Positions 13,402 through 37,538 of a stretch of DNA of 64,000 nt are shown one piece after another (the first letter of the stretch is position 1; every line of letters begins with the position of its first letter). Location: assembly GCA_049299895.1 (NCBI GenBank), contig JBAQYF010000031.1:1627-65626 (forward strand), given 5' to 3'. This DNA comes from Candidatus Altiarchaeia archaeon (lineage in GTDB: Archaea; Altiarchaeota; Altiarchaeia; IMC4; QMZM01). A program made the translations under genes and the position numbers. The notes beneath the pieces were generated by a model, which searched no databases, had not been told where the DNA came from, and saw only the letters and a program-made list of their open reading frames with translations.

Positions 13402-13836
13402 ATGAAAGAAGAACCCGTTACAAGGATTGCGATATCCCTTCCCCCGAAGCTCCTGGAAAAATTCGACAAGATGTCGGAGCACATGGGATACACAAACAGG
13501 TCGGAGGCGATAAGGGACGCGGTCAGGAACTATATCCTGAAGAACGAGCTCTCCAGCGAAAAAGGAAAGCGCATCGGGGTCATATCCATAGTCTACGACC
13601 ACGACGTGCGGGGGGTAAACGACGTACTCACAGACCTGCAGCACAGATACCACGACGTCATACAGTCGAGCACGCACCTGCACCTGGATGCGCACAACTG
13701 CATGGAGCTAATCATGGTGAAAGGAGAAGCTAAAAGGATAAATGAAATAAAGAACTTGCTCACCACCGTTTCAGGCGTGACGCACAGCGACCTGCTGATA
13801 ACCGGGATCGCAGGGGAACACGATCACACGCACTGA
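13402..13836 (+). CDS. nikR: Nickel-responsive transcriptional regulator NikR
   Basis: N-terminal ribbon-helix-helix (RIAISLPPKLLEKFD), C-terminal metal-binding domain with HLHLDAHNC (HxH...C nickel site). Confidence 0.85.
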   Translation: MKEEPVTRIAISLPPKLLEKFDKMSEHMGYTNRSEAIRDAVRNYILKNELSSEKGKRIGVISIVYDHDVRGVNDVLTDLQHRYHDVIQSSTHLHLDAHNCMELIMVKGEAKRINEIKNLLTTVSGVTHSDLLITGIAGEHDHTH

Positions 13837-15884: not shown

Positions 15885-16904
15885 CTAACAGACCCGCGGA
15901 ACAGGATCCCCTGCCGGCGCCTCAAGAAGCCGCTCCCCGCCTATCGAGGTCTTCAGGATAACGCGCCCCGTCCCCTTTATTACCTCGCCGAACATGACCG
16001 CATCTCTCCCGTATTTCGTCTTCTTCAGTGCTTTCAGGACCGCCTCCGCATCACCGGGAGCAACGCCGAACACTGCCTTGCCCTCGTTTGCGACGGTCAA
16101 TGGATCGATCCCCAGCATCCCGGAAGCGGCGCGGACGCTTTCGCGAACAGGGATAAGATCCTCGTCCAAAAAGACGTCCACTTTGGCCTTGTGCGCCATC
16201 TCGTTTACGCAGCTTGCAAGTCCCCCACGAGTAGGATCCTTCAAAGCATGCAGGTCGTAACCAATCACTTTTTCCACCATGTGCCACAGAGGCGCGCAGT
16301 CGGATACAAGCGAGGTCTCGAACGCAATACCTTCGCGCCCGGCCAAAACCGCCATCCCATGATCCCCCACGGGTCCGTTTATTATTATCTTGTCCCCTGG
16401 ACGCAGGCCTGCATCGGATACGACCTTCTTTGCAACGCCCAGACCCGCAGTATTGATCAGGATGCCAATATCGCTCTCCACGACCTTTGTATCGCCGGTC
16501 ACGATAGGAACTCCTATCTCCCGGGAAACGGCGTCCATGGACTCAACTATCGTGTGCAGGTCATCTATAGGGAAGCCTGCGCCCACGATGAACGCGGACG
16601 AAATGGCAAGAGGCTTGCCGCCCATCATTGACAAATCATTAATAGTTCCGCACATGGAAAGTTTTCCTATGTCCCCGCCCGGAAAGAAGATCGGCTTAAC
16701 GGTGTACGAATCGGTCGTGAACACCAACTGCTCGCCCTTGAAGGGAATCGTCGCCGCATCGTCCAGTTCCGCAAGGCCGATCCCTCCCGCCACGTTCTTG
16801 TTGGAGATCTTTCCCAGCAGGACGGACAAAAGGCCGTGCATCGCTTCTCCCCCACCTCCGTGCACAAGTTTAACTCTTTGAGTACTATTGAAACTGTTTT
16901 TCAT
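15885..16904 (-). CDS. hypE: Hydrogenase maturation factor HypE
   Basis: VKLVHGGGGEAMHGLL N-terminal motif, AIR-synthase-like fold, C-terminal PVPRVC. True start probably at MKNSFNS (the ORF track begins at an upstream TTG). Confidence 0.85.
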   Translation of the reverse strand: MKNSFNSTQRVKLVHGGGGEAMHGLLSVLLGKISNKNVAGGIGLAELDDAATIPFKGEQLVFTTDSYTVKPIFFPGGDIGKLSMCGTINDLSMMGGKPLAISSAFIVGAGFPIDDLHTIVESMDAVSREIGVPIVTGDTKVVESDIGILINTAGLGVAKKVVSDAGLRPGDKIIINGPVGDHGMAVLAGREGIAFETSLVSDCAPLWHMVEKVIGYDLHALKDPTRGGLASCVNEMAHKAKVDVFLDEDLIPVRESVRAASGMLGIDPLTVANEGKAVFGVAPGDAEAVLKALKKTKYGRDAVMFGEVIKGTGRVILKTSIGGERLLEAPAGDPVPRVC

Positions 16905-16905
16905 T

Positions 16906-17028
16906 TCATTCAGATGCGTACTGAGGGGTTGAAAACCCCTCAAAACTCGTAGTGATGATCAACCTTTCAGAAGGTTGGTGCATAGCCGCCCCGCCGCCAT
17001 GTATCAGCTTAACCCGTTCGCCTTTCAT
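16906..17028 (-). pseudogene. 40-codon duplicate of the hypE 5' end between hypB and hypE (fragment or uORF)
   Basis: Tail of listed ORF 16906..17313: MKGERVKLIHGGGAAMHQPSE.. resembles the HypE N-terminus (VKLVHGGGGEAMHG). Its ATG overlaps the hypB stop (ATGA) and its stop is 1 nt before the hypE ATG. Confidence 0.4.
16923..16941 (-). promoter_or_regulatory. Perfect 8-bp stem hairpin GAGGGGTT-TTC-AACCCCTC at the hypE 5' junction
   Basis: Derived from listed ORF translations (..EGFSTPQ.. / MRGFQPL..). Lies in the transcript just upstream of the hypE start. Confidence 0.35.
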
Positions 17029-17678
17029 TTCCTCTTCTCTTTCTCTTTTATTATCCAGTCCGCGAATACGTCTATACCCTTGTCTTTGCGGATGCTCGTC
17101 ATAAAGACGTTCAATTTGGAATTGATATGCAGGGCGTCTTTTCGCATCTTCTCCGCGTCCGCGCCCACGGCTTCCGCGATGTCTATCTTGTTTATGACCG
17201 CGGCATCGGACGACACGAATATCATCGGGTGCTTCTCCACGGTGTCGTCTCCCTCGGACACGGAAACGATGGTCACGTTCAATTGAGTGCCGAGATCGAA
17301 ATCCACGGGACATATCAGGTTGCCCACGTTCTCAACGAATAGGATATCGACATCCGACAGGTCGAAATGATCGACCGCATGCTCCACAAGATGCGCGTCC
17401 AGATGGCACTCTTTCCCGGTGTTCACGCCGATCACAGGGATCCCGAGTTTCTTCAGGCGGTTCGCGTCAAGGTCGCTTATGATGTCTCCTGCTATCGCCG
17501 CAATCCGGTAGCCCTTGAGCTTTTTATGGAGTACCTCGATCATAGCAGTCTTCCCGGAGCCGATCGCGCCCATGAAATTTATCGCAAGGACTCCGGCTTC
17601 GTCGAATGTCTTCCGGTTGCGCTCTGCGATCTTCTTGTTTATCTCGAAAACGTCCTTACCCATGCCGATCACGTGCAT
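17025..17678 (-). CDS. hypB: Hydrogenase nickel-incorporation GTPase HypB
   Basis: P-loop GAIGSGKT, CH motif (GKECHLDAH), ENVGNLICP. Confidence 0.9.
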   Translation of the reverse strand: MHVIGMGKDVFEINKKIAERNRKTFDEAGVLAINFMGAIGSGKTAMIEVLHKKLKGYRIAAIAGDIISDLDANRLKKLGIPVIGVNTGKECHLDAHLVEHAVDHFDLSDVDILFVENVGNLICPVDFDLGTQLNVTIVSVSEGDDTVEKHPMIFVSSDAAVINKIDIAEAVGADAEKMRKDALHINSKLNVFMTSIRKDKGIDVFADWIIKEKEKRK

Positions 17679-17687
17679 TTTCTTCTC

Positions 17688-18050
17688 TCACTCCGCAGTT
17701 ATCTCTTTTATCATGCATTCCCGCCCCCCGAGGGGTTTGGCTGATTCACCGCATACCGGGCATTTCAGCCTCCGGGTTAGGGAATACATGTCCTTTTTTT
17801 CAGGAATAATCTCGCCCGCATGCTTTTTATCGCACTCGATCTTCAGAGGGAGTATCCTGCAGTCTATCTTCGCACCCTCGGCAGCCGTTCCCTCGATCAG
17901 TATCTCAAGAGCGAATACTAGCTGGTCGACGCTTATCATCGAGAGCTGGCCTATCTCGAGGACGATCTTCGTGACTTTCTTTGCCCCGTGCTTCCCTGCT
18001 TCTGCAAGCACGCTGTCTACTATCCCTGAAGCGACTGAAAACTCGTGCAT
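17688..18050 (-). CDS. hypA: Hydrogenase nickel-insertion protein HypA
   Basis: MHEFSVASGIV N-terminus, C-terminal zinc finger C..C...CPVCG. The ORF track carries an N-terminal extension. Confidence 0.85.
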   Translation of the reverse strand: MHEFSVASGIVDSVLAEAGKHGAKKVTKIVLEIGQLSMISVDQLVFALEILIEGTAAEGAKIDCRILPLKIECDKKHAGEIIPEKKDMYSLTRRLKCPVCGESAKPLGGRECMIKEITAE

Positions 18051-18051
18051 C

Positions 18052-19131
18052 TTATTTTCTGCCGTACTTGTATGAGATGTTGCATGAGCCCTCGCCCGAG
18101 ACCATGCATGGTCCAACGGGACTGTCCGGCGTGCATCTCTTGCCGAACAGCGGGCAGCTTGCCGGGTATGCGATGCCCTTCAATATCTTCCCGCATATGC
18201 ATCCCCCGGGCTCGGGAGATTCTTTTACGTCTATCTGGAATTTTACGCGGGCGTCGTGGTCTTTGTATTCGTCTCTTATAGCAAGGCCCGAACCGGGGAT
18301 CACGGGAAAGCCGCGCCATTTCACGTCGCATGGGACGAATACTTTTTCCAATACGTCGAGCGCCTTCCGGTTACCTTCCTCTTTTACGACCCGCGAGTAT
18401 TCGTTGCGTACGCCGTGATCTTTTTGTTTGATCATCTTTAATAACATGAGTACGCCGTATAGTACGTCGACCGGCTCGAATCCTGCGACCACCTGGGGTA
18501 TCCCGTATTTCCCGCAAAGAGCCCTGTAAGGCGTGATCCCGATTATCGCGGACACGTGTCCCGGGTCTATGAATCCGTCTATCTTCGTATCGCCTTCTGA
18601 CAGGAGATAATCCATCGCCGGAGGGATCGTCCTGTGGCATGAAAGAACGTAAAAGTTCTCGGGGGCAGTCAGTAATTCGACAGCGCTCGAAGGCGCAGTC
18701 GTCTCGAAGCCTATCCCTATGTGGACGACCTCTTTTCCCGGCTTCTCTTTTGCCAGTTTCACCGCGTCGGTTATCGAATATACTATGCGCACGTCCGAGC
18801 CCGCAGCTTTCGCGTCGGCAAGAGTCAATGCGCTCCCGGGAACCTTAAGCATGTCCCCGAAAGAGGTGACGGTCGCGCCCTCCTTTGCAAGGGCAATCGC
18901 CTCGTCTATCTCCCTTGCGGTTGTAACGCATACGGGGCATCCCGGCCCTGAGATTATTTCCACGTCGTCAGGCAGCAGTGAGCGGATGCCTGCTTTTGCG
19001 ATAGCATCCTCGTGGGTTCCGCAGACGTGCATCAGGCGTACAGGGCCCATGCCTTCCGCGGTGGCCCGGATCTTCGCGGTTATTTTTTCCGCTATCCTGC
19101 GGTCCCTGAATCCCGCAAGGCCCTTATTCAT
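18052..19131 (-). CDS. hypD: Hydrogenase maturation factor HypD
   Basis: CGTHE, GPGCPVC and FEPVD-type motifs. Confidence 0.9.
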   Translation of the reverse strand: MNKGLAGFRDRRIAEKITAKIRATAEGMGPVRLMHVCGTHEDAIAKAGIRSLLPDDVEIISGPGCPVCVTTAREIDEAIALAKEGATVTSFGDMLKVPGSALTLADAKAAGSDVRIVYSITDAVKLAKEKPGKEVVHIGIGFETTAPSSAVELLTAPENFYVLSCHRTIPPAMDYLLSEGDTKIDGFIDPGHVSAIIGITPYRALCGKYGIPQVVAGFEPVDVLYGVLMLLKMIKQKDHGVRNEYSRVVKEEGNRKALDVLEKVFVPCDVKWRGFPVIPGSGLAIRDEYKDHDARVKFQIDVKESPEPGGCICGKILKGIAYPASCPLFGKRCTPDSPVGPCMVSGEGSCNISYKYGRK

Positions 19132-19336
19132 CCAGCATCTCCTCCAGTATTTTGAGGGTTTCCAGGGCGTCTTCCTCGCTCATGACCTCGATTGCGTACC
19201 CTGCATGGACTATGACGTATTCTCCGGGTTTTACGTTCACCAGGTCCGTTTTAACGGACCTCTTAACGCCTCCGAAGTCCACGGTCGCTTCCTTTCCCTT
19301 TATTTCCAGGACTTTCCCGGGTATTGCAAGGCACAT
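19124..19336 (-). CDS. hypC: Hydrogenase maturation factor HypC
   Basis: MCLAIP N-terminus, 70 aa. Confidence 0.85.
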   Translation of the reverse strand: MCLAIPGKVLEIKGKEATVDFGGVKRSVKTDLVNVKPGEYVIVHAGYAIEVMSEEDALETLKILEEMLDE

Positions 19337-19356
19337 TTTTATAATTATATAATTCT

Positions 19357-19377
19357 TAATGATTTATCATTATAATT
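19357..19377. promoter_or_regulatory. Shared promoter/operator element TAATGATTTATCATTATAATT in the hypC/hypF divergent intergenic
   Basis: Matches 22469..22489 at 20 of 21 positions. Imperfect palindrome TAATGAT..ATCATTA fused to a TATA-like ATTATAATT, about 17 nt upstream of the probable hypF ATG (19395). Confidence 0.55.
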
Positions 19378-19394
19378 CGTATATTATTGGAATC

Positions 19395-21647
19395 ATGTAC
19401 AAAAAAGCCGTTATCGGGATATCCGGGACCGTGCAGGGAGTGGGCTTTCGGCCGTTCGTCTACCACGCGGCCAGCGCCCTTGGGATAAAAGGGCAGGTCA
19501 GAAACCTCGGAGACGCGGGAGTCGAGATAATCGCCGAGGGACGCACCCCGGCAATAGAAAAGCTCATAGAGAAAATAAAAAAAGAAAGCCCGGGGAACGC
19601 AAGGATAGACAACGTGTCGGTCAGATGGACGACGGATGGACCGGGATACAAAGACTTCAGAATAGTCCCGAGCGGAGGAACCGGCATCGGCGGAAAGGTG
19701 GTCCCGGATTACGGCATCTGCGCTTCCTGCGTAAAAGACATAACTGAAAAAAAGAACAGGAGATATGATTACGCTCTGACGTCCTGCACCGACTGCGGCC
19801 CGCGATTCTCGGTTCTGGGAAATATGCCCCTCGACAGGGGGAACACGTCCTACAAAGCATTCCCGCCCTGCAATCGATGCTCAAAGGAATACTCAGACCC
19901 GGACGACAGGAGATTCTACGCCCAGACCATCGCCTGCCCCGCGTGCGGACCGGAATATTTCCTCCTGGACGGATCAGTAAAAAAAATCGATAAGCCGATA
20001 GAAGCGGCCATTAGGAAACTTATGGAGGGAAGAATCGTTGCCATAAAAGGAATGGGCGGAATGCACCTTGCATGCCTTGCAAAAGACGATTCAGCGGTGG
20101 AGAATCTTAGAAGTAGAAGGCAGCGCCCGCAGCAGCCCTTCGCGGTGATGGCAACGCTCGCGATGGCCCGGAAAATAGGGCATATCTCTAGGTGGGAGGA
20201 AAAACTGCTCAATTCGAAGGAAAGACCAATCGTCGTTCTGAAGAAAGGGGAAGGCTATGACCTGTCGGAACAGGTCGCGCCCGGGCTGGGCAACATAGGC
20301 GTGATGCTCCCATACAGTGGTTTGCATTACATTCTGTTCGATGAGATCAAAGAGCCTCTGGTCATGACGTCTGCCAATGCCCGCGGAGAGCCGATGATAA
20401 AGGACAACGAAGCAATATTAAAAAACAAGGCCGCAGACTACTACCTGCTGCACGACCTTTCCATCAGGAACAGGTGTGACGACTCCGTAATAAAGATAGT
20501 GAACGATAGTCCCGTTTTTATCCGCAGGAGCAGGGGATACGTCCCAAAGCCGGTCGCCCTTGCCAATCCAGGGAACAAAACAGTTCTTGCGTTGGGCGCA
20601 GGGGAGAACGTATCATTCTGCTTATTGAAAGGAAACGATGCCTTCCTCAGCCAGCACATAGGGAACACGGAGAACCTTCGAACAATTGAATATTTGCGGG
20701 AAGCAATAGAAAAATTTCTTGAGATCATACCTGCGAAAATAGATTCCATAGCCTGCGACCTGCACCCCTCTTTCAATACGACGAAACTTGCGGAAGATTT
20801 GAGCAAGAAATACGCCGCCCCGGCAACGCGCGTGCAGCACCACCATGCGCACCTTATGTCCCTCGCAGGGGAACATGGCATCGAAGAAATGATCGGTATC
20901 TGCTGCGACGGAGTGGGGTACGGTCTCGACGGAAAGGCATGGGGGGGCGAAGTATTCTCATTGAAGAACGGATCGATCGACCGCATCGGGCACCTGATAG
21001 AACAGCCCATGCCCGGAGGAGATGCTGCGTCACATTATCCTGCGAGGATGGTTGCAGGCATGTTCTACGATGAATTCCCGCAGGAGGAACTGAAAAAGAT
21101 ACTTTCGGACCTGCATTTCCGGCACGGAAAAAAAGAGATCGGCGTCGTCCTAAAACAGCTCGAAAGAAGGATAAACGTCCAGGAGACCACGTCCACCGGC
21201 CGGGTGCTGGATGCCGCCGCAGCATTGCTCGGGATCTGCCCGTACAGGACATACGAAGGGGAGCCTGCGATGAAACTGGAAGCGGCGGCTTTCGGAGGAA
21301 AGGACCTGCAATTCAATTACGTCGCAGAGAAGAACATACTGGACACAACCGCGCTGCTGATGGACGCACTAGACGCCAAAAAGAAAAAACGCAAAACAAG
21401 GGACATCGCATACTCGCTGGAGACCGCCCTTGCAAGAGGGCTTGCAGACATCGCTTTAAAGGCCGCGGGCAGGGAAAAGATCAACACGATCGGAGTATCG
21501 GGCGGCGTAGCATACAATGACGTATTCGTCAGGACAATTGCAGGATGCGTAAAAGAGAAAGATCTGAGGTTCCTGCAGAACAAAGAAGTCCCGTGCGGAG
21601 ACGGGGGGATCTCGTACGGACAGGCCGCATACGTCTCAAGGATCTGA
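19395..21647 (+). CDS. hypF: Carbamoyltransferase HypF
   Basis: Acylphosphatase domain (VQGVGFRPFV), two Zn-finger CxxC pairs, YrdC and Kae1-like domains. True start likely MYKKAVIG. Confidence 0.9.
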   Translation: MYKKAVIGISGTVQGVGFRPFVYHAASALGIKGQVRNLGDAGVEIIAEGRTPAIEKLIEKIKKESPGNARIDNVSVRWTTDGPGYKDFRIVPSGGTGIGGKVVPDYGICASCVKDITEKKNRRYDYALTSCTDCGPRFSVLGNMPLDRGNTSYKAFPPCNRCSKEYSDPDDRRFYAQTIACPACGPEYFLLDGSVKKIDKPIEAAIRKLMEGRIVAIKGMGGMHLACLAKDDSAVENLRSRRQRPQQPFAVMATLAMARKIGHISRWEEKLLNSKERPIVVLKKGEGYDLSEQVAPGLGNIGVMLPYSGLHYILFDEIKEPLVMTSANARGEPMIKDNEAILKNKAADYYLLHDLSIRNRCDDSVIKIVNDSPVFIRRSRGYVPKPVALANPGNKTVLALGAGENVSFCLLKGNDAFLSQHIGNTENLRTIEYLREAIEKFLEIIPAKIDSIACDLHPSFNTTKLAEDLSKKYAAPATRVQHHHAHLMSLAGEHGIEEMIGICCDGVGYGLDGKAWGGEVFSLKNGSIDRIGHLIEQPMPGGDAASHYPARMVAGMFYDEFPQEELKKILSDLHFRHGKKEIGVVLKQLERRINVQETTSTGRVLDAAAALLGICPYRTYEGEPAMKLEAAAFGGKDLQFNYVAEKNILDTTALLMDALDAKKKKRKTRDIAYSLETALARGLADIALKAAGREKINTIGVSGGVAYNDVFVRTIAGCVKEKDLRFLQNKEVPCGDGGISYGQAAYVSRI

Positions 21648-21697
21648 TTTATATCTTCGTTTTACATATGTATTACTAATTGTAAAACTTAGGTAAT

Positions 21698-21907
21698 ATG
21701 TCATTCGATGCAACGGTCAGGAAGATAGGCAATTCAGTCGGGGTGGTTTTCCCAAAAGAGTATGCTAAGAGCATGAACCTCAAGGTGAATGAAAAAGTGC
21801 GCTTGAACGTGGTCAGGGAAGCGGATTTCTCGGATATCTACGGTTTGCTTAAAGCAAAGAAAAGCGCGCAGAAGTTCAAAGACGAGGCGAGGGCAGGATG
21901 GAAGTAG
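21698..21907 (+). CDS. vapB: AbrB/SpoVT-fold antitoxin (VapB-like)
   Basis: VRKIGNSVGVVFPKE swapped-hairpin motif. 10-nt overlap with the downstream PIN gene. Confidence 0.7.
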   Translation: MSFDATVRKIGNSVGVVFPKEYAKSMNLKVNEKVRLNVVREADFSDIYGLLKAKKSAQKFKDEARAGWK

Positions 21908-22269
21908 GGCCTTATTTCTTTGATACGTACGCGCTGTACTCAATAGCCAATGGAACGCATTCTTACGCACCATACAAGCGTGTTCCCTGCGTAACTTCGG
22001 TCCTGAACCTGATGGAATTGCATTACTGCCTTCTGAAGGATCATGGAAAGGAAACTGCTAACAGATACTTTGACAGGTTCCGATCTTATGCCTGGGACAC
22101 TGACGACGACACGATAAAGCAGGCAATGGAATTCAAGCTCGAAAATAAAAAGAGGAACCTCTCTTATGTCGACTGCGTAGGTTATCTCATGGCCCAAAGA
22201 AACGGCCTGGTCTTTCTGACGGGGGATAAGGAATTCAAAGACATACAGGGAGTAGAATACGTGAAGTAG
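21898..22269 (+). CDS. vapC: PIN-domain toxin (VapC-like)
   Basis: N-terminal YFFDTYAL (first acidic residue), C-terminal DCVGYLMAQRNGLVFLTGDKEF. Confidence 0.7.
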   Translation: MEVGPYFFDTYALYSIANGTHSYAPYKRVPCVTSVLNLMELHYCLLKDHGKETANRYFDRFRSYAWDTDDDTIKQAMEFKLENKKRNLSYVDCVGYLMAQRNGLVFLTGDKEFKDIQGVEYVK

Positions 22270-22468
22270 GATTTCATACGGGCAGGCTGCGTATTACGCC
22301 GGACTGGAGTGATTTTTGAATTTGATTGATGCGGTTTTAGTTTCCTTTGATAACTTTTTCCATTCCATTCATTTATTTTCTAAACTATTTTTTCAGTTCT
22401 CCGGCCGCGCCTTTTTCCTTCTTTAAATTTTTGCCTTCCAGTATATATTCATACAATCAATCTTATCG

Positions 22469-22489
22469 TAATGATTAATCATTATAATT
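22469..22489. promoter_or_regulatory. Shared promoter/operator element TAATGATTAATCATTATAATT (perfect 16-bp palindrome TAATGATTAATCATTA) upstream of hdrA-mvh
   Basis: Verified from the reverse translation of listed ORF 22423..22641. About 15 nt upstream of the hdrA start. Confidence 0.55.
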
Positions 22490-22502: not shown

Positions 22503-24644
22503 TTGGTGAAGCAATTGAAAGTATTCCTGTACGACTTCGGCGGGGAGATAAAGTATCCCGATAACCTTGATTTTGGAGAGGACGTAGAGATAATCCGCCT
22601 AAAAGACATATCCACTGACGAGACGCAAAGGGCGGTCGCAAAGGCGCTCAAGACAGACAAAGTGATATTCGTCGGCCCGAGCCACAGGATATCCGAGAGG
22701 TTCTTTTCCGATCCCAACATAAAGTTCGTGAACGCCCGCGAGCAGGTGGCGTGGGTCGGGCACAATCCTGAGAAGATAAGGGACCTGATAGAGGGATCGA
22801 TTGCGAAATTGCGCAACTCGAAGAAGATTGAGAAGAAGCGTTTTCTGATAAAGCACAAGAGCGCACTTGTCATAGGCGCGGGGATTGCCGGCCTTGAGAC
22901 CGCGCGCCAGATAGCGAATTCCGGATACAAAGTATATCTTATTGAGAAGAAACCATTCGTGGGCGGGCTTGTCGCAAGGCTCGACAGGCTGTATCCCGCC
23001 GGGACTCCGAGCTCGCACGTTCTGTATCCGCTCATAAACGAGGTTGTCAGCAACCCCAATGTCGAGGTTCTCACAAACACCCAGATGTTGGACGTCGACG
23101 GCGTGGTGGGAGACTACAAGGTAAAACTGAAGACCAAGGGGAACGTCGTCGAGGGGAAATTGCCGAAGAAATGCGAGGAGGTGTGCCCGGTAGAAGTCGT
23201 GGACAAGATACCAAGAAAGGCTATCTACTACCAGCCTACGTATCCTGAATCGTATGGGATAGATTTCGACGCCTGCACGAAATGCGGGAACTGCGTAAAG
23301 GTATTGCGAGAGCTGTCCCTTGGGGAGACCGAGAAAACGATACACGTGGGCGCGATAGTCGTCGCGACAGGCCTCAAAGGATACGACGCAAAGAGGATAA
23401 GGGAATACGGCTACGGGAAGTACCCAAACGTGTACACGAAGCTCGAATTCGAAAGAAAATTCGCAAACGGCCTGATAAAACCCAAGAGCGTAGTAATCGT
23501 GAACTGCGCAGGTTCAAGGGACAAGAACCACCTGCCGTACTGCTCGCGCGTCTGCTGCATGCTCGGGCTGAAAGCAGCGAAGCTCATAAAGGACACCGCA
23601 CCGGATACCGACGTCTACGTGAATTACATAGACATGCGAAGCTACGGCGTATTCGAAGAATTTTATAACATCGTACGGGAAACCTATGGAGTAAAATTCG
23701 TCCAGGGCCGGCCTTCGGAGATACTCCAGGAAGCGGACGGAAAGCTCGTCGTAAGATGCGAAGACATACTCCTTGGAAAGAACCTGGAGATGAAAGCGGA
23801 TTGTGTCGTCCTCATGACAGGCTTTGTCCCGGACAAGGAGACGTTCGACCAACTGGGCATATACACAGCGGGCGCTTTCCCGATAGAATACGTCAACTCC
23901 ACATACTCAATCGACTCTAATCCAAGGGGAATCTTCATCGCAGGCTCTGCGGGCTATCCCAAGGACGTCGCGGAGATACTCATCAATGCAGCGAACGCGC
24001 CGGGAGGAGTGATAGAGATACTCTCCAAGGACTTCGTCGAGAACAAGACGCCGATAGCTAAGATCGACTCTAAGGTATGCAGCGAGAACAACTGCAGGAT
24101 ATGCGTGACCTCATGCCCGTACGGCGCTGTGCAGGTCAAAGAGGAGATCGTGACAGTGAATGAAGAGGTCTGCATGGGCTGCGGCATATGCACGGCGACA
24201 TGCGCCGCGGGGGCAAACCAGCTTGAAGGATTCGAGGAGAAAGGAATGCTCGCGCAGATAGGCGCAATGACGAAACACGAAGACATAATCGCGTTCATGT
24301 GCAAATGGAGCAGCTACAACGCCGCAGACAAGGCTGGGCAGGAGAGGATGACGTATCCTGAGAATGTGAAGATAATACGGGTGCCGTGCACCGGCCGCGT
24401 CTCTGGACAGATGATACTCAAGGCGTATGAATCGGGAGCAAAAGCCGTGCTCGTCGCGGGCTGTCCGCCGGACGCCTGCCACTATTTCACCGGGAACTTC
24501 AAAGCAAGAAAGAGGATAACTGCATTAAAAGCGATGATAAAGCAGTTCGGCATAAACCCGGACTCTCTTGCCATCGAATGGATAGGAAAGGATGAGTCCA
24601 AGAAATTCACTGACATCGTTACGAAACTGAATGAGGCTAATTAA
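22503..24644 (+). CDS. hdrA: Heterodisulfide reductase subunit A-like flavoprotein fused to a C-terminal MvhD domain
   Basis: FAD site ALVIGAGIAGLETA, several 4Fe-4S ferredoxin Cys motifs, C-terminal MvhD-like domain (DIIAFMCKWSSY...VPCTGRV...AGCPPDACHY). The N-terminal ~120 aa contain no Cys. Confidence 0.8.
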   Translation: MVKQLKVFLYDFGGEIKYPDNLDFGEDVEIIRLKDISTDETQRAVAKALKTDKVIFVGPSHRISERFFSDPNIKFVNAREQVAWVGHNPEKIRDLIEGSIAKLRNSKKIEKKRFLIKHKSALVIGAGIAGLETARQIANSGYKVYLIEKKPFVGGLVARLDRLYPAGTPSSHVLYPLINEVVSNPNVEVLTNTQMLDVDGVVGDYKVKLKTKGNVVEGKLPKKCEEVCPVEVVDKIPRKAIYYQPTYPESYGIDFDACTKCGNCVKVLRELSLGETEKTIHVGAIVVATGLKGYDAKRIREYGYGKYPNVYTKLEFERKFANGLIKPKSVVIVNCAGSRDKNHLPYCSRVCCMLGLKAAKLIKDTAPDTDVYVNYIDMRSYGVFEEFYNIVRETYGVKFVQGRPSEILQEADGKLVVRCEDILLGKNLEMKADCVVLMTGFVPDKETFDQLGIYTAGAFPIEYVNSTYSIDSNPRGIFIAGSAGYPKDVAEILINAANAPGGVIEILSKDFVENKTPIAKIDSKVCSENNCRICVTSCPYGAVQVKEEIVTVNEEVCMGCGICTATCAAGANQLEGFEEKGMLAQIGAMTKHEDIIAFMCKWSSYNAADKAGQERMTYPENVKIIRVPCTGRVSGQMILKAYESGAKAVLVAGCPPDACHYFTGNFKARKRITALKAMIKQFGINPDSLAIEWIGKDESKKFTDIVTKLNEAN

Positions 24645-24647
24645 AAA

Positions 24648-25637
24648 ATGGCAGAAGCAAAAGAAAAGCTCAAAATCGCGATATGCAGGGGAGCTACTTG
24701 CTCGGGATGCGACATAGCGATACTCGACATACACGAGCGGCTCCCGGCGGTCCTGGAGAAGGCAGAGATAGTATATGCCCCCACCCTCATCGACGCGAAG
24801 AACTCGGACGTCGAGAACATGAAAGACGGATCTATAGACGTCTGCTTCTATCACGGCTGCGTGCGCGACTCGGACAACGAGGAGCTCGCGCACCTCCTGC
24901 GAAAGAAGTCCAAGATAATGATAGCCTTCGGCGCATGCGCCTGTTTCGGCGGGATATTCGGCCTCGCGAACGTGACGGACCGGGAGGGCATAATAGAAGA
25001 GGTATACAAGAATACGGCCTCCACCGAGAACCCGGAAGGAACGACACCCCAGACGGAGTACTGGGACAAAAAAGACCACCGGCTCACTCTTCCCGAATTA
25101 TACGACAGCGTCTACGCGCTTAATGACAAAGTCGACGTAGACTACTATGTGCCATTGTGCCCGCCGATAGCAGAGCAGATAATGGCCGCGCTCACGGCGA
25201 TAACTACGTGGAACCTCCCGCCGAAGGGAACTATAATCGCCTCGGAAAAAACGCTGTGCAGCGAATGCACCCGGACGAGATCCGCTGTCAGGAAGATAGC
25301 GAAGATACACAGGCCTCATGAGATAAAGATAGACCAGGAGAAATGCATGCTCGACCAGGGACTGCTATGCATGGGACCTGCTACGAGAGCCGGATGTGGT
25401 ACCATCTGCGTGAAGGCTAACGTGCCGTGCAGGGGATGCAGCGGACCCACGAAGGAGGCATTCGACCAGGGGGCGAACATGCTTGGACTTATAGCCACAA
25501 TCTACGGGATACCCGAGGAATCCCTGACGGAAGAAGACGTAAAGAAGATAATGAAGGAGATAAAGGACCCGCTTGGTACGTTCTACAGATTCACTCTGCC
25601 TAAGTCGATCCTAAAGAGAAAGAGGATGGAAAAATGA
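24648..25637 (+). CDS. mvhG: [NiFe]-hydrogenase small subunit (MvhG/VhuG type)
   Basis: IAICRGATCSGCDIA, GCVRDSD, FGACACFGG cluster motifs. Confidence 0.8.
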   Translation: MAEAKEKLKIAICRGATCSGCDIAILDIHERLPAVLEKAEIVYAPTLIDAKNSDVENMKDGSIDVCFYHGCVRDSDNEELAHLLRKKSKIMIAFGACACFGGIFGLANVTDREGIIEEVYKNTASTENPEGTTPQTEYWDKKDHRLTLPELYDSVYALNDKVDVDYYVPLCPPIAEQIMAALTAITTWNLPPKGTIIASEKTLCSECTRTRSAVRKIAKIHRPHEIKIDQEKCMLDQGLLCMGPATRAGCGTICVKANVPCRGCSGPTKEAFDQGANMLGLIATIYGIPEESLTEEDVKKIMKEIKDPLGTFYRFTLPKSILKRKRMEK

Positions 25638-26113
25638 TGGAGAAGAGAATATTTATGTATAGGGAAGACAATAGTCGATACATATCAATTTTAGATATAT
25701 GCATAGACTTTTATAAGACCAAAGTTACGTACAGATCATCCAAAACTGTGTTGTTATTATCCATCTCAGTTTCGTTTATAATTGCGCTTTTATCACTTTC
25801 GTGTAATAACATTATCGCTAATTTTCCCTTTATGCAGATAGTAATAATGATCACTATGATCATTTTAGGTGGGATTGCCTTTTCAGAAGCGTCTGATTTC
25901 GGAAGAGATTTTAAAACTTTGAGAAAACTACATAGAGCCAAGATTGAACCTGACCAATGGCGGCTAATTGTGATGTTTGATGAAGTAGGAATTAAGGAGG
26001 CAAATACCGAGAGGATATTAACCGTTGAAAATAATGATGGCTCAGGATTAATCGAGGGGGCAATTTTATTACTGCTTTGCTCTCTTTTAAAGAGTAGTCG
26101 ACATACAAAATGA
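25634..26113 (+). CDS. AT-rich hypothetical membrane protein inserted between the hydrogenase small and large subunit genes
   Basis: ATG overlaps the mvhG stop (ATGA). About 30% GC against about 50% flanks. Three predicted TM segments. No homology recognised. Confidence 0.4.
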   Translation: MMEKRIFMYREDNSRYISILDICIDFYKTKVTYRSSKTVLLLSISVSFIIALLSLSCNNIIANFPFMQIVIMITMIILGGIAFSEASDFGRDFKTLRKLHRAKIEPDQWRLIVMFDEVGIKEANTERILTVENNDGSGLIEGAILLLLCSLLKSSRHTK

Positions 26114-26126
26114 ACGACAAAAACGC

Positions 26127-26182
26127 ATCACCATCAACCCAGTCACAAGACTGGAGGGCCACCCAAAGATAGACCATCAACC
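26127..26182 (+). pseudogene. Decayed duplicate of the mvhA 5' coding end (translates ITINPVTRLEGHPKID..)
   Basis: About 75% nt identity to mvhA codons 9-26 (IIINPVTRLEGHAKIDIF). Stops after about 20 codons. Confidence 0.4.
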
Positions 26183-26253
26183 CTTTTGAGTTGGCGAAAC
26201 GGGCCACATACGCTAACGCTAGTGGCCCAGACGAAATAAACCAATAAAAGAAA

Positions 26254-27732
26254 ATGACTCACGAGAAGAAAAAAGAGATAATCATAAACCCTGTTACAAG
26301 GCTCGAAGGCCACGCGAAGATAGACATCTTCCTGAACGATTCGGGGAACGTGGAAGACGCCTATTTCCAGGTCATCGAGCTGCGGGGCTTTGAGAAGTTC
26401 TGCCAGGGCAGGCCTGCGGAAGAGATGCCCAGGATCGCTCCAAGGATATGCGGCGTCTGCCCTAATCCGCATCACATGGCTTCAGGGAAGGCTGTTGACA
26501 TGGTGTTCGGAGTCGAAGCAACGGAGACGGCAAAGAAACTGAGGGAACTGTCGCTCTGCGCGCACTACATGCACAGCCACATAGCGCACTTCTACGCGCT
26601 GGGTGGGCCGGATTTCATAATAGGCCCGGCGGCTGATCCTGCTGAGAGGAATATTGTTGGAGTCATAAACAAAGTGGGTGGAGAGATAGCAGGACAAGTA
26701 ATAACCGCCCGCGCATACGCACAAAGAATACAGCAGATAATAAGCGGAAGGGCGACTCACCCCATAAACAATCTTCCAGGAGGGCTTGCAAAACCCATAA
26801 CTTCAGAAGAGCAGAAGGAAATAGAGAAGATGAGTAAGACCCTTCTGGGCTTTGGCAAATTCACGCTGCAGATATTCGAAGACATCGTCCTCAAGAACAA
26901 GGATTACGTGGACATAATAACAGGAGACATATACCAACACAGGACGTATTATATGGGGACGGTTGACGCGAAGAACAAGGTCACATTCTACGACGGAGAC
27001 ATACGCGTCGTATCTCCCGAAGGAAAGGAGTATGAAAAATTCAGGGGTGAAAAATACCTGGACCACATAGCGGAACACGTGGAGCCCTGGACGTATCTCA
27101 AGTTCCCGTACCTGAAAAAGAACGGCTGGAAGGGCATAGTCGACGGAGCGGACTCTGGAGTATACAGGGTCGCCCCACTCGCCCGGCTGAACGCCGCGGA
27201 CGGGATGGCAACGCCTCTTGCAAACGAGGCATATGATAAGATGTACGAGACCCTCGGGGGAAAGCCCGTGCACGCGACACTCGCCATGCACTGGGCGAGG
27301 GTTATAGAGATAATGTATGCTGCGGAAAGGATAAAAGAACTCATAGAGGACCCGCAGATAACGGATACGGACGTCAGGAACATCCCCACAGACGTCGTCG
27401 GAGAAGGCATCGGACAAGTGGAAGCACCGCGAGGCACTTTATTCCATCATTACAAAACGGACGACGAAGGGATACTCACGAAGATAAACATCGTGGTCGC
27501 GACAGGGAACAACAACGCAGCGATATGCATGTCCGTGAAGCGCGCGGCAGAGAAGCTCATAAAGAACTGGAAAGTAGACGACGGCATACTCAACATGATA
27601 GAGATGGCATTCCGGGCATACGACCCGTGCTTCGCATGCGCGACGCACACGCTGCCGGGGCACATGCCACTTGAGATAAGGATATACGATGCGGAGAAGA
27701 AATTGTACAAGAGGATAACCAGATATGAATAA
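26254..27732 (+). CDS. mvhA: [NiFe]-hydrogenase large subunit (MvhA type)
   Basis: N-terminal RICGVCPNPH and C-terminal DPCFACATH Ni-Fe ligand motifs. Confidence 0.85.
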   Translation: MTHEKKKEIIINPVTRLEGHAKIDIFLNDSGNVEDAYFQVIELRGFEKFCQGRPAEEMPRIAPRICGVCPNPHHMASGKAVDMVFGVEATETAKKLRELSLCAHYMHSHIAHFYALGGPDFIIGPAADPAERNIVGVINKVGGEIAGQVITARAYAQRIQQIISGRATHPINNLPGGLAKPITSEEQKEIEKMSKTLLGFGKFTLQIFEDIVLKNKDYVDIITGDIYQHRTYYMGTVDAKNKVTFYDGDIRVVSPEGKEYEKFRGEKYLDHIAEHVEPWTYLKFPYLKKNGWKGIVDGADSGVYRVAPLARLNAADGMATPLANEAYDKMYETLGGKPVHATLAMHWARVIEIMYAAERIKELIEDPQITDTDVRNIPTDVVGEGIGQVEAPRGTLFHHYKTDDEGILTKINIVVATGNNNAAICMSVKRAAEKLIKNWKVDDGILNMIEMAFRAYDPCFACATHTLPGHMPLEIRIYDAEKKLYKRITRYE

Positions 27733-28183
27733 CAAGACCCTCGTGATGGGCGTAGGGAACCCCATACTCAAAGATGACGGAGTTGGGATCCACGCAGTAA
27801 GGGAACTACAGAAGACAGTTACTGGAGTGGATTTCCTTGAAGAATCGTTGTCGGGGCTGGAACTCATCGAGCAGTTCCGCGGATACGATAGGGTCGTGAT
27901 AATAGACGCAGTGAAGACACAGGGAGGCGTACCTGGAGAGATGTATCATCTGACTCCCGAGGACATGCCGACCCTGCACGGGCTCTCGCCGCACGACGCG
28001 GACTTTCGCAGTGCTATCGAATACGGAAAAAAATTCATGGGAGTAATGCCCTTAATAGAGATATACGGAATAGAAGTAGAGAATGTAACAGAATATGGAG
28101 AAACTCTTACAGCGGAAGTGGAGAGGTCTCTTCCGGGGCTGGTAGAGAAGATTAAGGTCAAACTCGAAGATGGATCTACGTGA
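27725..28183 (+). CDS. Hydrogenase maturation endopeptidase (HycI/FrhD-like)
   Basis: LVMGVGNPILKDDGVGIHAV, VVIIDAV. Immediately follows the large subunit gene. Confidence 0.75.
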   Translation: MNNKTLVMGVGNPILKDDGVGIHAVRELQKTVTGVDFLEESLSGLELIEQFRGYDRVVIIDAVKTQGGVPGEMYHLTPEDMPTLHGLSPHDADFRSAIEYGKKFMGVMPLIEIYGIEVENVTEYGETLTAEVERSLPGLVEKIKVKLEDGST

Positions 28184-28610
28184 GGAACTAAAGCACGAAA
28201 TAGATGCAAAGACATTAAGCTATTGCTTTTCATGCGGCATGTGCACCGGAGGGTGCCCCTCGGCCCGGATGAATGAGAAATACAATCCCAGGAGGATACT
28301 CCACAGGGCGGTGATAGAAGGAAAGATAGAAGACGACGTCTGGCTCTGCACGAACTGTTACACATGCCAGGAACGCTGCCCGACAAAAACGAAAGTAGCG
28401 GACATCATAAGCCTCCTGCGCCGGCTCTATGTTAAAGAAAAAGGGATACCTGAATCAATAAGACCGCTCGTAACGAATTTACAGGCCTGCGGATTCACGG
28501 CGACCATAGGCGAACTCGAGAACAAGAGAAGGGAGAGAATGGGCCTTCCGCCCGTTAAGACGAATGACGAGATAAAGAGGATCATCGAGAAGACAGGAGG
28601 AGGGAAATGA
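28170..28610 (+). CDS. hdrC: Heterodisulfide reductase subunit C-like
   Basis: Two 4Fe-4S motifs, CFSCGMCTGGCP and CTNCYTCQERCP. Confidence 0.75.
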   Translation: MDLREELKHEIDAKTLSYCFSCGMCTGGCPSARMNEKYNPRRILHRAVIEGKIEDDVWLCTNCYTCQERCPTKTKVADIISLLRRLYVKEKGIPESIRPLVTNLQACGFTATIGELENKRRERMGLPPVKTNDEIKRIIEKTGGGK

Positions 28611-29485
28611 AAAACAAATATGCTTATTTCATCGGCTGCACGATACCATTCCGCGCCTCCAACTACGACCTTGCCACAAGGAAGGTTACGGAGTCGCTGG
28701 GAATAGAGCTTGTCGACCTCCCGGATGCGGGATGCTGCGGCCTGTATTTCGAGCTCATAAACGAGATGACGTATCTTTCCATGGCCGCCCGCGTGCTGTC
28801 GATGGCGGAAGAGAAGAAACTCGACCTCCTCGTACTATGCAACGGATGCAACGGCTCATTGTACCGGGCCAACAAGAAGCTGAAGGAGAACCCGGAACTA
28901 AAGGACAAAGTGAACGAAGTCCTGACTGAAGTAGGCCGCGAGTACAGGGGAACTATAGAAGTAAAGCACCTCATCCGTGTGCTGTACGAAGACATCGGGA
29001 TAGAGAAAATAAAAGAAAAGATCGCTAACCCCCTCACGAACGTGAAAGCCGCGGCGCACTACGGCTGCCACCTTTTGAAGCCTTCGGAAGAGATCATGTT
29101 CGACGATCCGAAAAATCCAGTAAGTTTGGACAGGCTAATCGAAGTAACGGGAGCAAAGTCGGTCGACTACTACGACAAGCTGCAGTGCTGCGGAGGATAC
29201 GTGCTGGCAGCGGACGCGAAGACCGCCTATAAGATGACTGGCGAGAAGCTTTCGCACGTCAAAGCGGCCGGTGCCGACATAATGATCACAGGCTGCCCGT
29301 TCTGCAACGTCATGTATGATGCTAACCAGAGGGCTGCGGAGACTGAGACAGGTCAGCAGTACAAGATACCGTGCCTGCATTATCCGCAGCTTCTGGCGCT
29401 TGCGATGGGGGTCGATCCGAAGGAATTGGGCTTCGAACAGAACAGGGTGAGGCCTGATATGAAACTGTTTATCAAATCTCCTTAA
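28607..29485 (+). CDS. hdrB: Heterodisulfide reductase subunit B-like (two CCG domains)
   Basis: GCTIPF, DAGCCGLY, CCGG, GCPFC motifs. Confidence 0.8.
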   Translation: MKNKYAYFIGCTIPFRASNYDLATRKVTESLGIELVDLPDAGCCGLYFELINEMTYLSMAARVLSMAEEKKLDLLVLCNGCNGSLYRANKKLKENPELKDKVNEVLTEVGREYRGTIEVKHLIRVLYEDIGIEKIKEKIANPLTNVKAAAHYGCHLLKPSEEIMFDDPKNPVSLDRLIEVTGAKSVDYYDKLQCCGGYVLAADAKTAYKMTGEKLSHVKAAGADIMITGCPFCNVMYDANQRAAETETGQQYKIPCLHYPQLLALAMGVDPKELGFEQNRVRPDMKLFIKSP

Positions 29486-37516: not shown

Positions 37517-37538
37517 GCCAGTATTCTCCGGGGTTTTT

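What the first reader, a model, noticed from the sequence alone, without database searches (positions are those of the whole stretch)
19340..22489. Near-identical 21-nt palindromic promoter element shared by hypF and the hdrA-mvh operon; NikR encoded nearby
TAATGATTTATCATTATAATT at 19357-19377 lies in the hypC/hypF divergent intergenic. TAATGATTAATCATTATAATT at 22469-22489 lies upstream of hdrA and contains a perfect 16-bp palindrome TAATGATTAATCATTA. They match at 20 of 21 positions. Both sit about 15-17 nt upstream of the probable start codons, the spacing expected for leaderless archaeal transcripts. Each consists of a dyad-symmetric half (TAATGAT..ATCATTA) fused to a TATA-like ATTATAATT. 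This implies that a dimeric regulator overlapping the TATA/BRE co-regulates nickel-hydrogenase maturation (hyp) and the Mvh/Hdr hydrogenase. The nikR gene at 13402..13836 is an obvious candidate, since NikR operators are AT-rich palindromes.
Basis: seen in the sequence. Interest (0 to 1): 0.7.

Follow-up and report, generated by a model that had tools for sequence, protein, structure and literature searches.

The report
Shared palindromic operator at hydrogenase promoters
Two promoters in an uncultured archaeon, one for hydrogenase maturation and one for the Mvh/Hdr hydrogenase complex, share a conserved 16-bp palindrome that looks like the docking site of one regulator, but that regulator is probably not the nearby nickel sensor NikR.

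Summary
TAATGATTTATCATTATAATT (19357-19377) and TAATGATTAATCATTATAATT (22469-22489) match at 20 of 21 positions, with none expected by chance, and no other promoter in the 64 kb carries the motif. The window is from a 'Candidatus Altiarchaeia' MAG.

The palindrome TAATGAT-WW-ATCATTA is kept at both promoters in relatives with 90% and 69% HdrA identity, while the flanks diverge. A variant precedes an [FeFe]-hydrogenase/hdrACB operon in another Altiarchaeales lineage. The same element occurs in Methanomicrobiales at acetate-assimilation genes (acs, acetate permease). It also occurs in a betaproteobacterium between a Fur-family gene and znuCBA.

It lies 19.5-46.5 nt upstream of start codons, in the TATA/TSS zone. 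This fits an operator for a homodimeric regulator, most likely a repressor, that co-controls hyp and hdrA-mvh.

NikR is not supported. Known NikR operators are 25-28 bp with half-sites two helical turns apart, the motif also serves nickel-unrelated genes, and a better NikR-like box (GTATTAC-N13-GTATTAC, 11383-11409) precedes the nikR operon.

Leading candidate regulators are an uncharacterised small HTH/Cys-rich family encoded beside the motif in relatives, and a Fur-family protein. The leaderless claim fails for hdrA, which has an SD and a TTG start at 22515.

The parts
19357..19377 (+). Motif copy 1, TAATGATTTATCATTATAATT. The palindrome arms span 19357-19372 (centre 19364.5). It lies in the 58-bp hypC/hypF divergent intergenic region, 30.5 nt from the hypF ATG and 28.5 nt from the hypC ATG.
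   Evidence: Conserved in L008 (CAATGATTTATCACTATAATT), L078 and L124 (TAATGATTTATCATTA):
22469..22489 (+). Motif copy 2, TAATGATTAATCATTATAATT. The perfect 16-bp palindrome spans 22469-22484 (centre 22476.5), upstream of the hdrA-mvh-hdrCB operon.
   Evidence: Identical 21-mer in L008. L124 has TAATGATAAATCATTATAATT and L125 has the variant TAATGATCATTCATTA:
22442..22449 (+). TATATATT, a canonical TATA-like box 31 nt upstream of the palindrome centre. Equivalent boxes lie 28-31 nt upstream in L008, L124 (TTTATATA) and L125 (TTTATATA). If this box is used, the palindrome overlaps the transcription start.
   Evidence: the sequence shows it directly; the function is inferred
22505..22509 (+). 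Shine-Dalgarno GGTGA, 5 nt before the TTG start of hdrA
   Evidence: conserved GGTGA-N5-TTG in L008
22515..24644 (+). hdrA-mvhD fusion gene (709 aa from TTG 22515)
24648..29485 (+). Rest of the operon: mvhG 24648-25637, extra 159-aa ORF 25634-26113, mvhA 26254-27732, hycI-type protease 27725-28183, hdrC 28170-28610, hdrB 28607-29485
   Evidence: synteny
19395..21647 (+). hypF (750 aa), transcribed rightwards from the motif-bearing intergenic region
15885..19336 (-). hypC-hypD-hypA-hypB-hypE cluster, transcribed leftwards from the same intergenic region
It is a genuine NikR but is not supported as the factor for this motif.

Best explanation
The two 21-mers are copies of one cis-regulatory operator. 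It is a 16-bp palindrome, TAATGAT-WW-ATCATTA, with a gene-proximal TAATT extension, embedded in two core promoters: the divergent hypC/hypF promoter and the hdrA-mvhGA-hycI-hdrCB promoter.

A homodimeric helix-turn-helix type regulator binds it. Because the site coincides with the TATA box or the transcription start, binding most likely represses. The effect is to switch [NiFe]-hydrogenase maturation and the Mvh/Hdr electron-bifurcating complex on and off together. In the 44-58 bp hypC/hypF spacer, one bound dimer would control both directions.

The regulator is most likely not NikR. The best candidate is a member of an uncharacterised family of about 120-aa archaeal HTH proteins with a Cys-rich tail. 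In related Altiarchaeales this gene sits directly beside motif-bearing hydrogenase/hdr promoters. A Fur-family protein is the second candidate.

Shown: existence, non-randomness, conservation and promoter specificity of the element, and its occurrence in Methanomicrobiales. Inferred: protein binding, repression, and the identity of the factor.
For: Non-random and promoter-specific:
- 0 of 100 shuffles reproduce the motif.
- No other copies in 64 kb.

Phylogenetic footprint:
- L008 (HdrA about 90% identical) keeps the 21-mer perfectly at hdrA and 19 of 21 at hypF. The flanks and the distance to the SD change.
- L124 (69% identical) keeps a perfect palindrome at both promoters. Its hypC/hypF spacer is only 44 bp, with the palindrome centred 21.5 and 23.5 nt from the two ATGs.
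- L125-127 have TATAATGATCATTCATTATA 33 nt before the SD of an ECF/[FeFe]-hydrogenase/hdrA/hdrC/hdrB operon.
- Only the symmetric inner arms are invariant, as expected for a dimer site.

Same element elsewhere in Archaea:
- It is invariant in eight Methanolinea/Methanoregulaceae acs-argC intergenic regions of 54-61% GC with diverged flanks.
- It forms a 26-bp perfect palindrome 9-14 nt before the start of the acetate permease gene in Methanomicrobium-like genomes.

Candidate factor:
- A 118-aa HTH/Cys protein lies between hypF and the hdrA motif in L124. Its 70%-identical homologue lies directly upstream of the motif in L125-127.
- A sister subfamily sits beside thi4-iscS-nifU with its own palindrome, TAACAATTGTTA.
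- The family has 1,381 clusters at E<=1e-10.

Not an RNA structure: fold z-scores are -1.0, -0.05 and -0.37.
Against: - There are no TSS, binding or expression data, so repression versus activation, and TATA versus TSS overlap, are inferred.
- The HTH/Cys gene is not in the 64-kb window or in any Methanomicrobiales locus fetched (tblastn and HMM). None of the 16 word-index homologues is recorded on the long contig carrying this window (160,990 bp) or L008 (94,206 bp), though other contigs of those MAGs cannot be excluded.
- Closer relatives L007, L122 and L123 (78-85% HdrA identity) lack the motif or have only a decayed copy, so the regulon is evolutionarily patchy.
- The distance from the palindrome to the start codon varies by up to about 25 nt.
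Confidence: 0.7

Rival explanations
1. NikR operator. Ni-NikR, encoded 5.5 kb away, binds the element and couples hyp and mvh/hdr expression to nickel supply.
For: - A genuine nikR is nearby and syntenic in L008.
- The target genes make or mature a nickel enzyme.
- The half-site TAATGA resembles the E. coli NikR half-site GTATGA (PMC7055735).
- From my own recollection, not checked with the tools here, the outer arms AATTATA-N12-TATAATT of the 26-bp Methanomicrobium palindrome resemble the H. pylori NikR consensus TATWATT-N11-AATWATA.
- The window NikR beta-strand (R-I-A-I-S) is of the P. horikoshii type; 2bj1 reads R-F-S-I-S in the aligned position. That it also matches the H. pylori type rests on my recollection of the Hp sequence.
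Against: - The invariant part is a compact 7-2-7 palindrome with half-site centres 9 bp apart. Described NikR operators need half-sites about two helical turns apart.
- The left outer arm is not conserved in Altiarchaeia.
- The identical element serves acs and acetate-permease loci in Methanomicrobiales.
- The best match in the window to a published NikR box (GTGTTAC-N13/14-GTAACAC) is GTATTAC-N13-GTATTAC at 11383-11409, directly before the operon that contains nikR.
Confidence: 0.07
2. Operator of a Fur-family metalloregulator (Fur, Zur or PerR-like) present elsewhere in the genome. The 21-mer is read as two overlapping xxxTAAT-N-ATTAxxx (7-1-7) sites offset by 7 bp.
For: - The arms (A)TAATGAT are identical to those of the Fur box GATAATGATnATCATTATC and of a PerR-type box GtTAATgATnATcATTAaC (PMC545781).
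- In betaproteobacterial contig L093 (56% GC), the exact 20-mer, as the 18-bp perfect palindrome ATAATGAT-TT-ATCATTAT, lies between a divergent Fur-family gene and znuC-znuB-znuA.
Against: - No Fur-family gene was seen in any archaeal locus fetched.
- The centre is 2 bp, not the 1 bp of classical boxes.
- The archaeal targets (hydrogenase/Hdr, acetate uptake and activation) are not metal-homeostasis genes.
- Only one contextual example exists, and it is bacterial.
Confidence: 0.18
3. No dedicated regulator. The palindrome is itself a symmetric core promoter, with a TATA box GATTWATC flanked by inverted BRE-like arms, that fires in both directions. The two promoters share it simply because it is a strong promoter.
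For: - The palindrome centre lies 19.5-30.5 nt from the hypC, hypF and aceP start codons, about where a TATA box of a leaderless gene sits.
- The octamer GATTTATC occurs as the TATA-like box at -27 of gene 62060.
- In L124 there is no room for any other TATA in the 44-bp spacer.
Against: - It is absent from about 35 other promoters of the window.
- The arms are not purine-rich BRE-like, and no other promoter shares them.
- The hdrA-type promoters have a separate canonical TATA 28-31 nt upstream.
- hdrA and aceP are not divergent pairs, yet they keep the dyad.
- Cross-phylum identity combined with rarity within each genome fits a specific factor better.
Confidence: 0.1
4. Recent local duplication or gene conversion copied one promoter onto the other, and the similarity has no regulatory meaning.
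For: The two copies are only 3.1 kb apart and are 95% identical over 21 nt.
Against: - Similarity stops abruptly at the motif edges.
- Both copies are maintained independently in lineages down to 69% protein identity.
- The motif occurs in another archaeal order.
Confidence: 0.02

Closest known systems
Archaeal repressor operators overlapping TATA/BRE or the transcription start (e.g. MDR1, LrpA, Phr, NrpR, TrmB-type control; from general knowledge)
   Same: It is a short dyad-symmetric site inside the core promoter. It is found at a small set of functionally linked operons, and one site serves a divergent gene pair.
   Different: The sequence matches none of those regulators' published boxes as far as I recall. 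The factor is unidentified and no TSS is known. The same box is shared between two distant archaeal lineages with different target genes.
Fur-family boxes (Fur GATAATGATnATCATTATC; PerR-type GtTAATgATnATcATTAaC; PMC545781)
   Same: The arm sequence (A)TAATGAT / ATCATTA(T) is identical. It can be read as overlapping TAAT-N-ATTA units. One bacterial instance of the exact 20-mer sits between a Fur-family gene and znuCBA (L093).
   Different: The centre is even, 2 bp (7-2-7), instead of 1 bp. The archaeal targets are hydrogenase/Hdr and acetate assimilation genes, not metal uptake. No Fur gene was found near any archaeal copy.
NikR operators (E. coli GTATGA-N16-TCATAC; delta-proteobacterial GTGTTAC-N13/14-GTAACAC; PMC7055735, PMC545781)
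   Same: It is an AT-rich inverted repeat near a nickel-enzyme gene cluster with nikR in the neighbourhood. The hexamer TAATGA resembles GTATGA.
   Different: The half-sites are 9 bp apart centre to centre, rather than about 18-22 bp. The conserved bases lie where NikR operators have a non-specific spacer. The motif also occurs at nickel-unrelated genes.
SurR control of hydrogenase and hyp genes in Thermococcales (general knowledge)
   Same: The concept is the same: one regulator coordinating hydrogenase structural genes and hypF-type maturation genes through promoter-proximal sites.
   Different: As I recall it, the SurR motif (GTTn3AAC) is unrelated. No SurR homologue was identified here.

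Membership tests
NikR operator | Two half-sites separated by an 11-16 bp spacer, giving a 25-28 bp inverted repeat that spans two helical turns | tested here: not met
   The invariant bases form a 7-2-7 palindrome. The outer-arm reading AATTATA-N12-TATAATT holds only in Methanomicrobium. The left outer arm matches at only 2-6 of 7 positions in Altiarchaeia.
NikR operator | Sites lie in front of nickel uptake or nickel-enzyme genes, often including the nikR operon itself | tested here: inconclusive
   hyp and mvh fit this feature. The same element at acs, argC and the acetate permease gene in Methanomicrobiales does not. The nikR operon carries a different, more NikR-like repeat at 11383-11409.
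NikR operator | Ni2+-dependent binding by NikR | not testable with these tools
   This needs EMSA or footprinting.
Fur-family box | Inverted repeat with (A)TAATGAT-type arms and TAAT-N-ATTA cores | tested here: met
   Comparison with the consensus sequences in PMC545781. The motif reads as cgTAAT-G-ATTAatc and gatTAAT-C-ATTAtaa.
Fur-family box | Odd central spacing (7-1-7, or the 19-bp 9-1-9 form) | tested here: not met
   The centre is 2 bp in every archaeal copy (TT, TA, AA or CA) and in L093.
Fur-family box | A Fur-family regulator encoded in the genome, often adjacent | tested here: inconclusive
   It is adjacent in bacterial L093. None appears in the window or in the fetched archaeal loci.
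Archaeal core-promoter operator (repressor type) | Dyad symmetry conserved in orthologous promoters while the flanks diverge | tested here: met
   Alignments A2 and A3; Methanolinea set.
Archaeal core-promoter operator (repressor type) | Overlaps TATA/BRE or the transcription start | tested here: inconclusive
   The palindrome centre lies 19.5-46.5 nt upstream of start codons. No TSS data are available. In Methanolinea it is about 220 nt from both flanking genes.
Generic BRE/TATA promoter element | Present at most promoters of the organism | tested here: not met
   Only 2 sites in 64 kb. Upstream regions of 44 genes were inspected.
Operator of the small HTH/Cys-rich regulator family (L124 7076-7432 type) | Regulator gene adjacent to the operator-bearing promoter | tested here: inconclusive
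   This is met in L124 and L125-127. It is not met in the window, L008 or the Methanomicrobiales loci.

The most novel reading that the evidence does not exclude
The palindrome is the operator of a widespread but uncharacterised family of about 120-aa archaeal HTH regulators with an N-terminal PCE motif and a C-terminal Cys cluster, possibly sensing Fe-S or redox state. One subfamily would switch hydrogenase/heterodisulfide-reductase operons in Altiarchaeia, and perhaps acetate assimilation in Methanomicrobiales. A sister subfamily would control thi4-iscS-nifU through TAACAATTGTTA. Functionally this would be an archaeal counterpart of IscR-type regulators.
Probability: 0.25. Interest if true: 0.7.

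Novelty: new member of a known kind. Interest (0 to 1): 0.45.

Why it matters
Almost nothing is known about transcriptional control in Altiarchaeia, or about how archaea coordinate hydrogenase maturation with the Mvh/Hdr electron-bifurcating complex. This is a sharply defined, conserved operator shared by hyp and hdr/mvh promoters. It recurs at acetate-assimilation genes of Methanomicrobiales. That gives a concrete, testable handle: a 16-bp probe, two candidate regulator families, and predicted target operons. It could be used to find a regulator of hydrogen and carbon metabolism in uncultured and cultured methanogen-related archaea. It also warns against assigning AT-rich palindromes near nickel genes to NikR by proximity alone.

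Tried and rejected
- RNA element: Rfam found nothing in the window or around the Methanolinea copy. Folding of the motif regions is no better than shuffles.
- Generic promoter element: rejected.
- AT-rich metagenome hits: most of the 108 exact hits lie in DNA below 35% GC. They are in coding sequence or next to genes with no family hit, and so are treated as chance or uninformative.
- C/D-box sRNA downstream of the Methanolinea copy: the TGATGA box is not consistently present across the eight loci, so this was dropped.
- A conserved partner NikR half-site about 20 bp from the palindrome (TCATAC at 22449-22454): not conserved in L008.
- Literature search for the core sequence: no prokaryotic regulatory hit. 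Searches for archaeal Fur boxes and for Altiarchaeal Hdr regulation gave nothing useful.
- HypF-based genome scan: only two distant Methanomassiliicoccaceae loci, both without the motif.
- Homologue of the HTH/Cys regulator in the window or other loci: none found by tblastn or HMM.
- Structure of the HTH/Cys protein: AF2 gave pLDDT 81. There is no significant PDB fold match beyond generic HTH proteins, and no NCBIfam family above cut-off.
- L002 as a test of conservation of the nikR-upstream region: it is the same species (97% identity), so uninformative.
- A TATA-position survey of 27 window genes gave only a broad mode at -24 to -38. It cannot fix the promoter geometry.
Full report
**Observation.** The window holds TAATGATTTATCATTATAATT at 19357-19377 and TAATGATTAATCATTATAATT at 22469-22489. 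They match at 20 of 21 positions. In 100 dinucleotide-preserving shuffles no match with up to 3 mismatches appeared. The 16-mer core with up to 3 mismatches gives only these two real sites plus chance-level hits (6 found vs 3.5 expected). The arm ATCATTATAATT with up to 1 mismatch occurs only here. So this is not a generic promoter word.

**Gene context.**
- nikR lies at 13402-13836, in an apparent operon with a 412-aa unknown protein.
- hypE, hypB, hypA, hypD and hypC are on the minus strand, ending at hypC 19124-19336.
- hypF is on the plus strand.
- A MazE-like/PIN toxin-antitoxin pair lies at 21698-22269.
- Then come an hdrA-mvhD fusion, mvhG, an extra 159-aa ORF, mvhA, a HycI-type protease, hdrC and hdrB.

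Exact-sequence look-ups name the source as a 'Candidatus Altiarchaeia archaeon' MAG with a 160,990-bp contig. NCBI starts HypF at ATG 19395 (750 aa). So the organism is an archaeon, and TBP/TFB-type promoters apply.

**Start codons and spacing.** The motif ends 17 nt before the hypF ATG. For hdrA, all close homologues begin MKVFLYDF, which corresponds to TTG 22515. In relative L008 an in-frame TAA sits immediately upstream of the equivalent TTG. A GGTGA Shine-Dalgarno 5 nt upstream is conserved in both. hdrA therefore starts 25 nt after the motif and is SD-led, not leaderless.

**Phylogenetic footprinting in Altiarchaeales.**
- L008 (GCA_023252215.1, HdrA about 90% identical) has the identical 21-mer before hdrA and CAATGATTTATCACTATAATT in the hypC/hypF spacer. 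The flanking bases, the spacer length to hypC and the distance to the SD all differ.
- L124 (HdrA 69% identical) has perfect palindromes at both promoters. One is TAATGATTTATCATTA in a hypC/hypF spacer of only 44 bp, centred 21.5 nt from the hypF ATG and 23.5 nt from the hypC ATG. The other is TTATAATGATAAATCATTATAATT before hdrA.
- L125-127, another Altiarchaeales lineage, have TATAATGATCATTCATTATA 33 nt before the SD of an operon encoding an ECF-S component, an [FeFe]-hydrogenase-like protein, hdrA-mvhD, hdrC and hdrB.
- Across these independently retrieved sites the inner arms AATGAT/(A/T)TCA are invariant. The gene-proximal TAATT is mostly kept. The distal outer arm is not.
- Relatives L007 (82%), L122 (85%) and L123 (78%) lack the motif or have a decayed copy, so the element turns over.

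**Occurrence outside Altiarchaeales.** One exact scan of public metagenome contigs with AATGATTWATCAYTATAATT returned 108 stretches. Most lie in DNA below 35% GC, within coding regions or beside unannotatable genes. I treat these as chance. Four groups stand out.
- (a) L078 is the orthologous hypC/hypF spacer.
- (b) Eight contigs of 54-61% GC (seven with the acs-argC architecture), plus one of 43% GC (L020) where only the argC side was identified, carry the full palindrome. In the seven it sits in the middle of a roughly 460-nt intergenic region between acetyl-CoA synthetase and argC-CBS-argJ; in L104 acs lies at the same distance but the other flank differs. The motif is invariant and the flanks diverge. 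Cluster names identify several of these contigs as Methanolinea/Methanoregulaceae.
- (c) L048 and L098, extended to L118-121, carry a 26-bp perfect palindrome AATTATAATGATTAATCATTATAATT. It lies 9-14 nt upstream of the GTG start of a Gpr1/Fun34/YaaH acetate permease in Methanomicrobium-like genomes.
- (d) L093 (56% GC) has ATAATGAT-TT-ATCATTAT between a divergent Fur-family gene and znuC-znuB-znuA. The Fur protein's nearest named relatives are betaproteobacterial, Orrella and Rubrivivax.

The element is therefore a functional, protein-recognised DNA word in at least two archaeal orders and one bacterial lineage.

**Where it sits in the promoter.** The palindrome centre lies 19.5-30.5 nt from the start codons of hypC, hypF and aceP. 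It lies 36.5-46.5 nt from the SD-led hdrA-type starts. Two geometries fit.
- (i) The centre GATTWATC is itself the TATA box. The same octamer is the TATA-like box at -27 of gene 62060. In L124 there is no room for another TATA.
- (ii) In the four hdrA-type promoters a canonical TATA (TATATATT, TTATATAT or TTTATATA) lies 28-31 nt upstream of the palindrome centre. That would put the transcription start inside the palindrome.

A survey of 27 window promoters shows only a broad mode of TATA-like boxes at -24 to -38 and cannot decide between them. Either way a bound dimer would collide with TBP/TFB or RNAP. I therefore infer repression, with one site controlling both hypC and hypF. This step is inference; no TSS or binding data exist.

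**Which factor: NikR.** The nikR gene is genuine. It is closest to P. horikoshii NikR (2bj1, E=2e-37). Three findings argue against it.
- Described NikR operators are 25-28-bp inverted repeats with half-sites two turns apart: GTATGA-N16-TCATAC and GTGTTAC-N13/14-GTAACAC. Here the invariant bases form a 7-2-7 palindrome, exactly where a NikR operator has its spacer.
- The only NikR-like reading uses the outer arms AATTATA-N12-TATAATT. That holds in Methanomicrobium, but the left arm is not conserved in Altiarchaeia.
- The same element at acs, argC and aceP has no nickel logic.

In addition, the window's best match to the published NikR box is GTATTAC-N13-GTATTAC at 11383-11409. It lies 12 nt before the first gene of the putative operon that ends in nikR. 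I put NikR at about 7%.

**Which factor: Fur family.** The arms equal those of Fur and PerR-type boxes in PMC545781. The 21-mer can be read as two overlapping TAAT-N-ATTA units. L093 gives a textbook Zur-type context. Against this, the centre is 2 bp rather than 1, no Fur gene was seen in any archaeal locus, and the archaeal targets are not metal-homeostasis genes. I put this at about 18%.

**Which factor: a small HTH/Cys-rich family.**
- In L124 a 118-aa protein lies between hypF and the hdrA motif. It has an HTH and a C-terminal C-x2-C-x9-C-x2-C-x9-C tail.
- Its 70%-identical homologue, named '[Candidatus Altiarchaeales archaeon] transcriptional regulator', lies directly upstream of the motif-bearing [FeFe]-hydrogenase/hdr operon in L125-127.
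- A sister subfamily (53-58% identical) sits beside thi4-iscS-nifU and thiI. It has its own palindrome, TAACAATTGTTA, in the shared intergenic region.
- A profile search finds 1,381 clusters at E<=1e-10, so the family is widespread.
- It has no NCBIfam or Pfam assignment above cut-off and no significant PDB fold match for an AF2 model of pLDDT 81.
- Against: no homologue is present in the 64-kb window or in any Methanomicrobiales locus fetched. None of the 16 word-index homologues is recorded on the long contigs that carry the window or L008.

I rate this the single best candidate at about 25-35%, but it is unproven.

**Other rivals.** A factor-independent symmetric bidirectional promoter (about 10%) is disfavoured. 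The element is rare within each genome, the arms are not BRE-like, and hdrA and aceP are not divergent pairs. A meaningless local duplication is excluded by the conservation pattern. An RNA-level role is not supported.

**Verdict.** The co-regulation idea is supported. The NikR assignment and the leaderless claim for hdrA are not. This is a new member of a known kind, a dyad operator in archaeal core promoters. Interest is moderate, and would rise if the HTH/Cys family proves to be the cognate redox or Fe-S sensing regulator.

Noticed in passing
window 11383-11409: GTATTAC-N13-GTATTAC direct repeat, 12 nt upstream of ATG 11422. That ATG starts the first gene of a putative operon: two small membrane proteins, a 412-aa lipoprotein-like protein and nikR. 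It is the window's best match (2 mismatches in 14) to the delta-proteobacterial NikR box GTGTTAC-N13/14-GTAACAC, so it is a plausible NikR autoregulatory site.
   Followed up: partly
window 11040-11068: TCATGA-N17-TCATGA (…AATCATGATAAAT…GTCATGATAGATT…) in an AT-rich intergenic region upstream of two small paralogous minus-strand ORFs (10734-10953 and about 11150-11350). It could be another operator; the half-site resembles E. coli NikR TCATAC.
   Followed up: no
window 25634-26253: A roughly 620-bp lower-GC insertion between mvhG and mvhA. It carries a 159-aa membrane-like ORF whose start overlaps the mvhG stop. In relatives L007, L008 and the P0121 contig (and L009), mvhG is followed directly by mvhA.
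   Followed up: partly
window 21698-22269: A MazE/AbrB-like antitoxin plus PIN toxin (vapBC-type) pair inserted between hypF and the hdrA promoter. It is absent in L008. In L124 the same slot holds the HTH/Cys regulator gene.
   Followed up: partly
L124 7076-7432; L125 7150-7515; L128 10001-10360; L129 3617-3973: An uncharacterised family of about 120-aa HTH proteins with an N-terminal MKxPCE motif and a C-terminal Cys cluster. There are 1,381 clusters at E<=1e-10, no curated family and no PDB fold match. One subfamily sits next to hydrogenase/hdr operons. Another sits next to thi4-iscS-nifU/thiI with the palindrome TAACAATTGTTA.
   Followed up: partly
L032, L056, L090, L092, L106, L109, L111 (Methanolinea/Methanoregulaceae; cluster names obtained for L032, L056 and L106) and L104 (acs side only): The palindrome sits almost exactly midway (about 223 and 220 nt) between acs and argC. 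A third half-site-like cTGATGATT lies about 30 nt downstream. A conserved GGATTAACATC lies about 25 nt before the argC ATG, and a conserved GTTCGAGTGTTCA lies on the acs side. Long regulated leaders or an unannotated small transcript are possible.
   Followed up: partly
window 42658-44243 and L008 18410-20007: A LarA-family nickel-dependent racemase with an adjacent rhodanese gene lies in the same neighbourhood as nikR, hyp and mvh in both genomes. This adds to a local concentration of nickel-related genes.
   Followed up: no
window 36757-42206: Two receiver-only response regulators followed by a 1,555-aa ORF. The large ORF was not annotated here and may be a large sensor protein.
   Followed up: no
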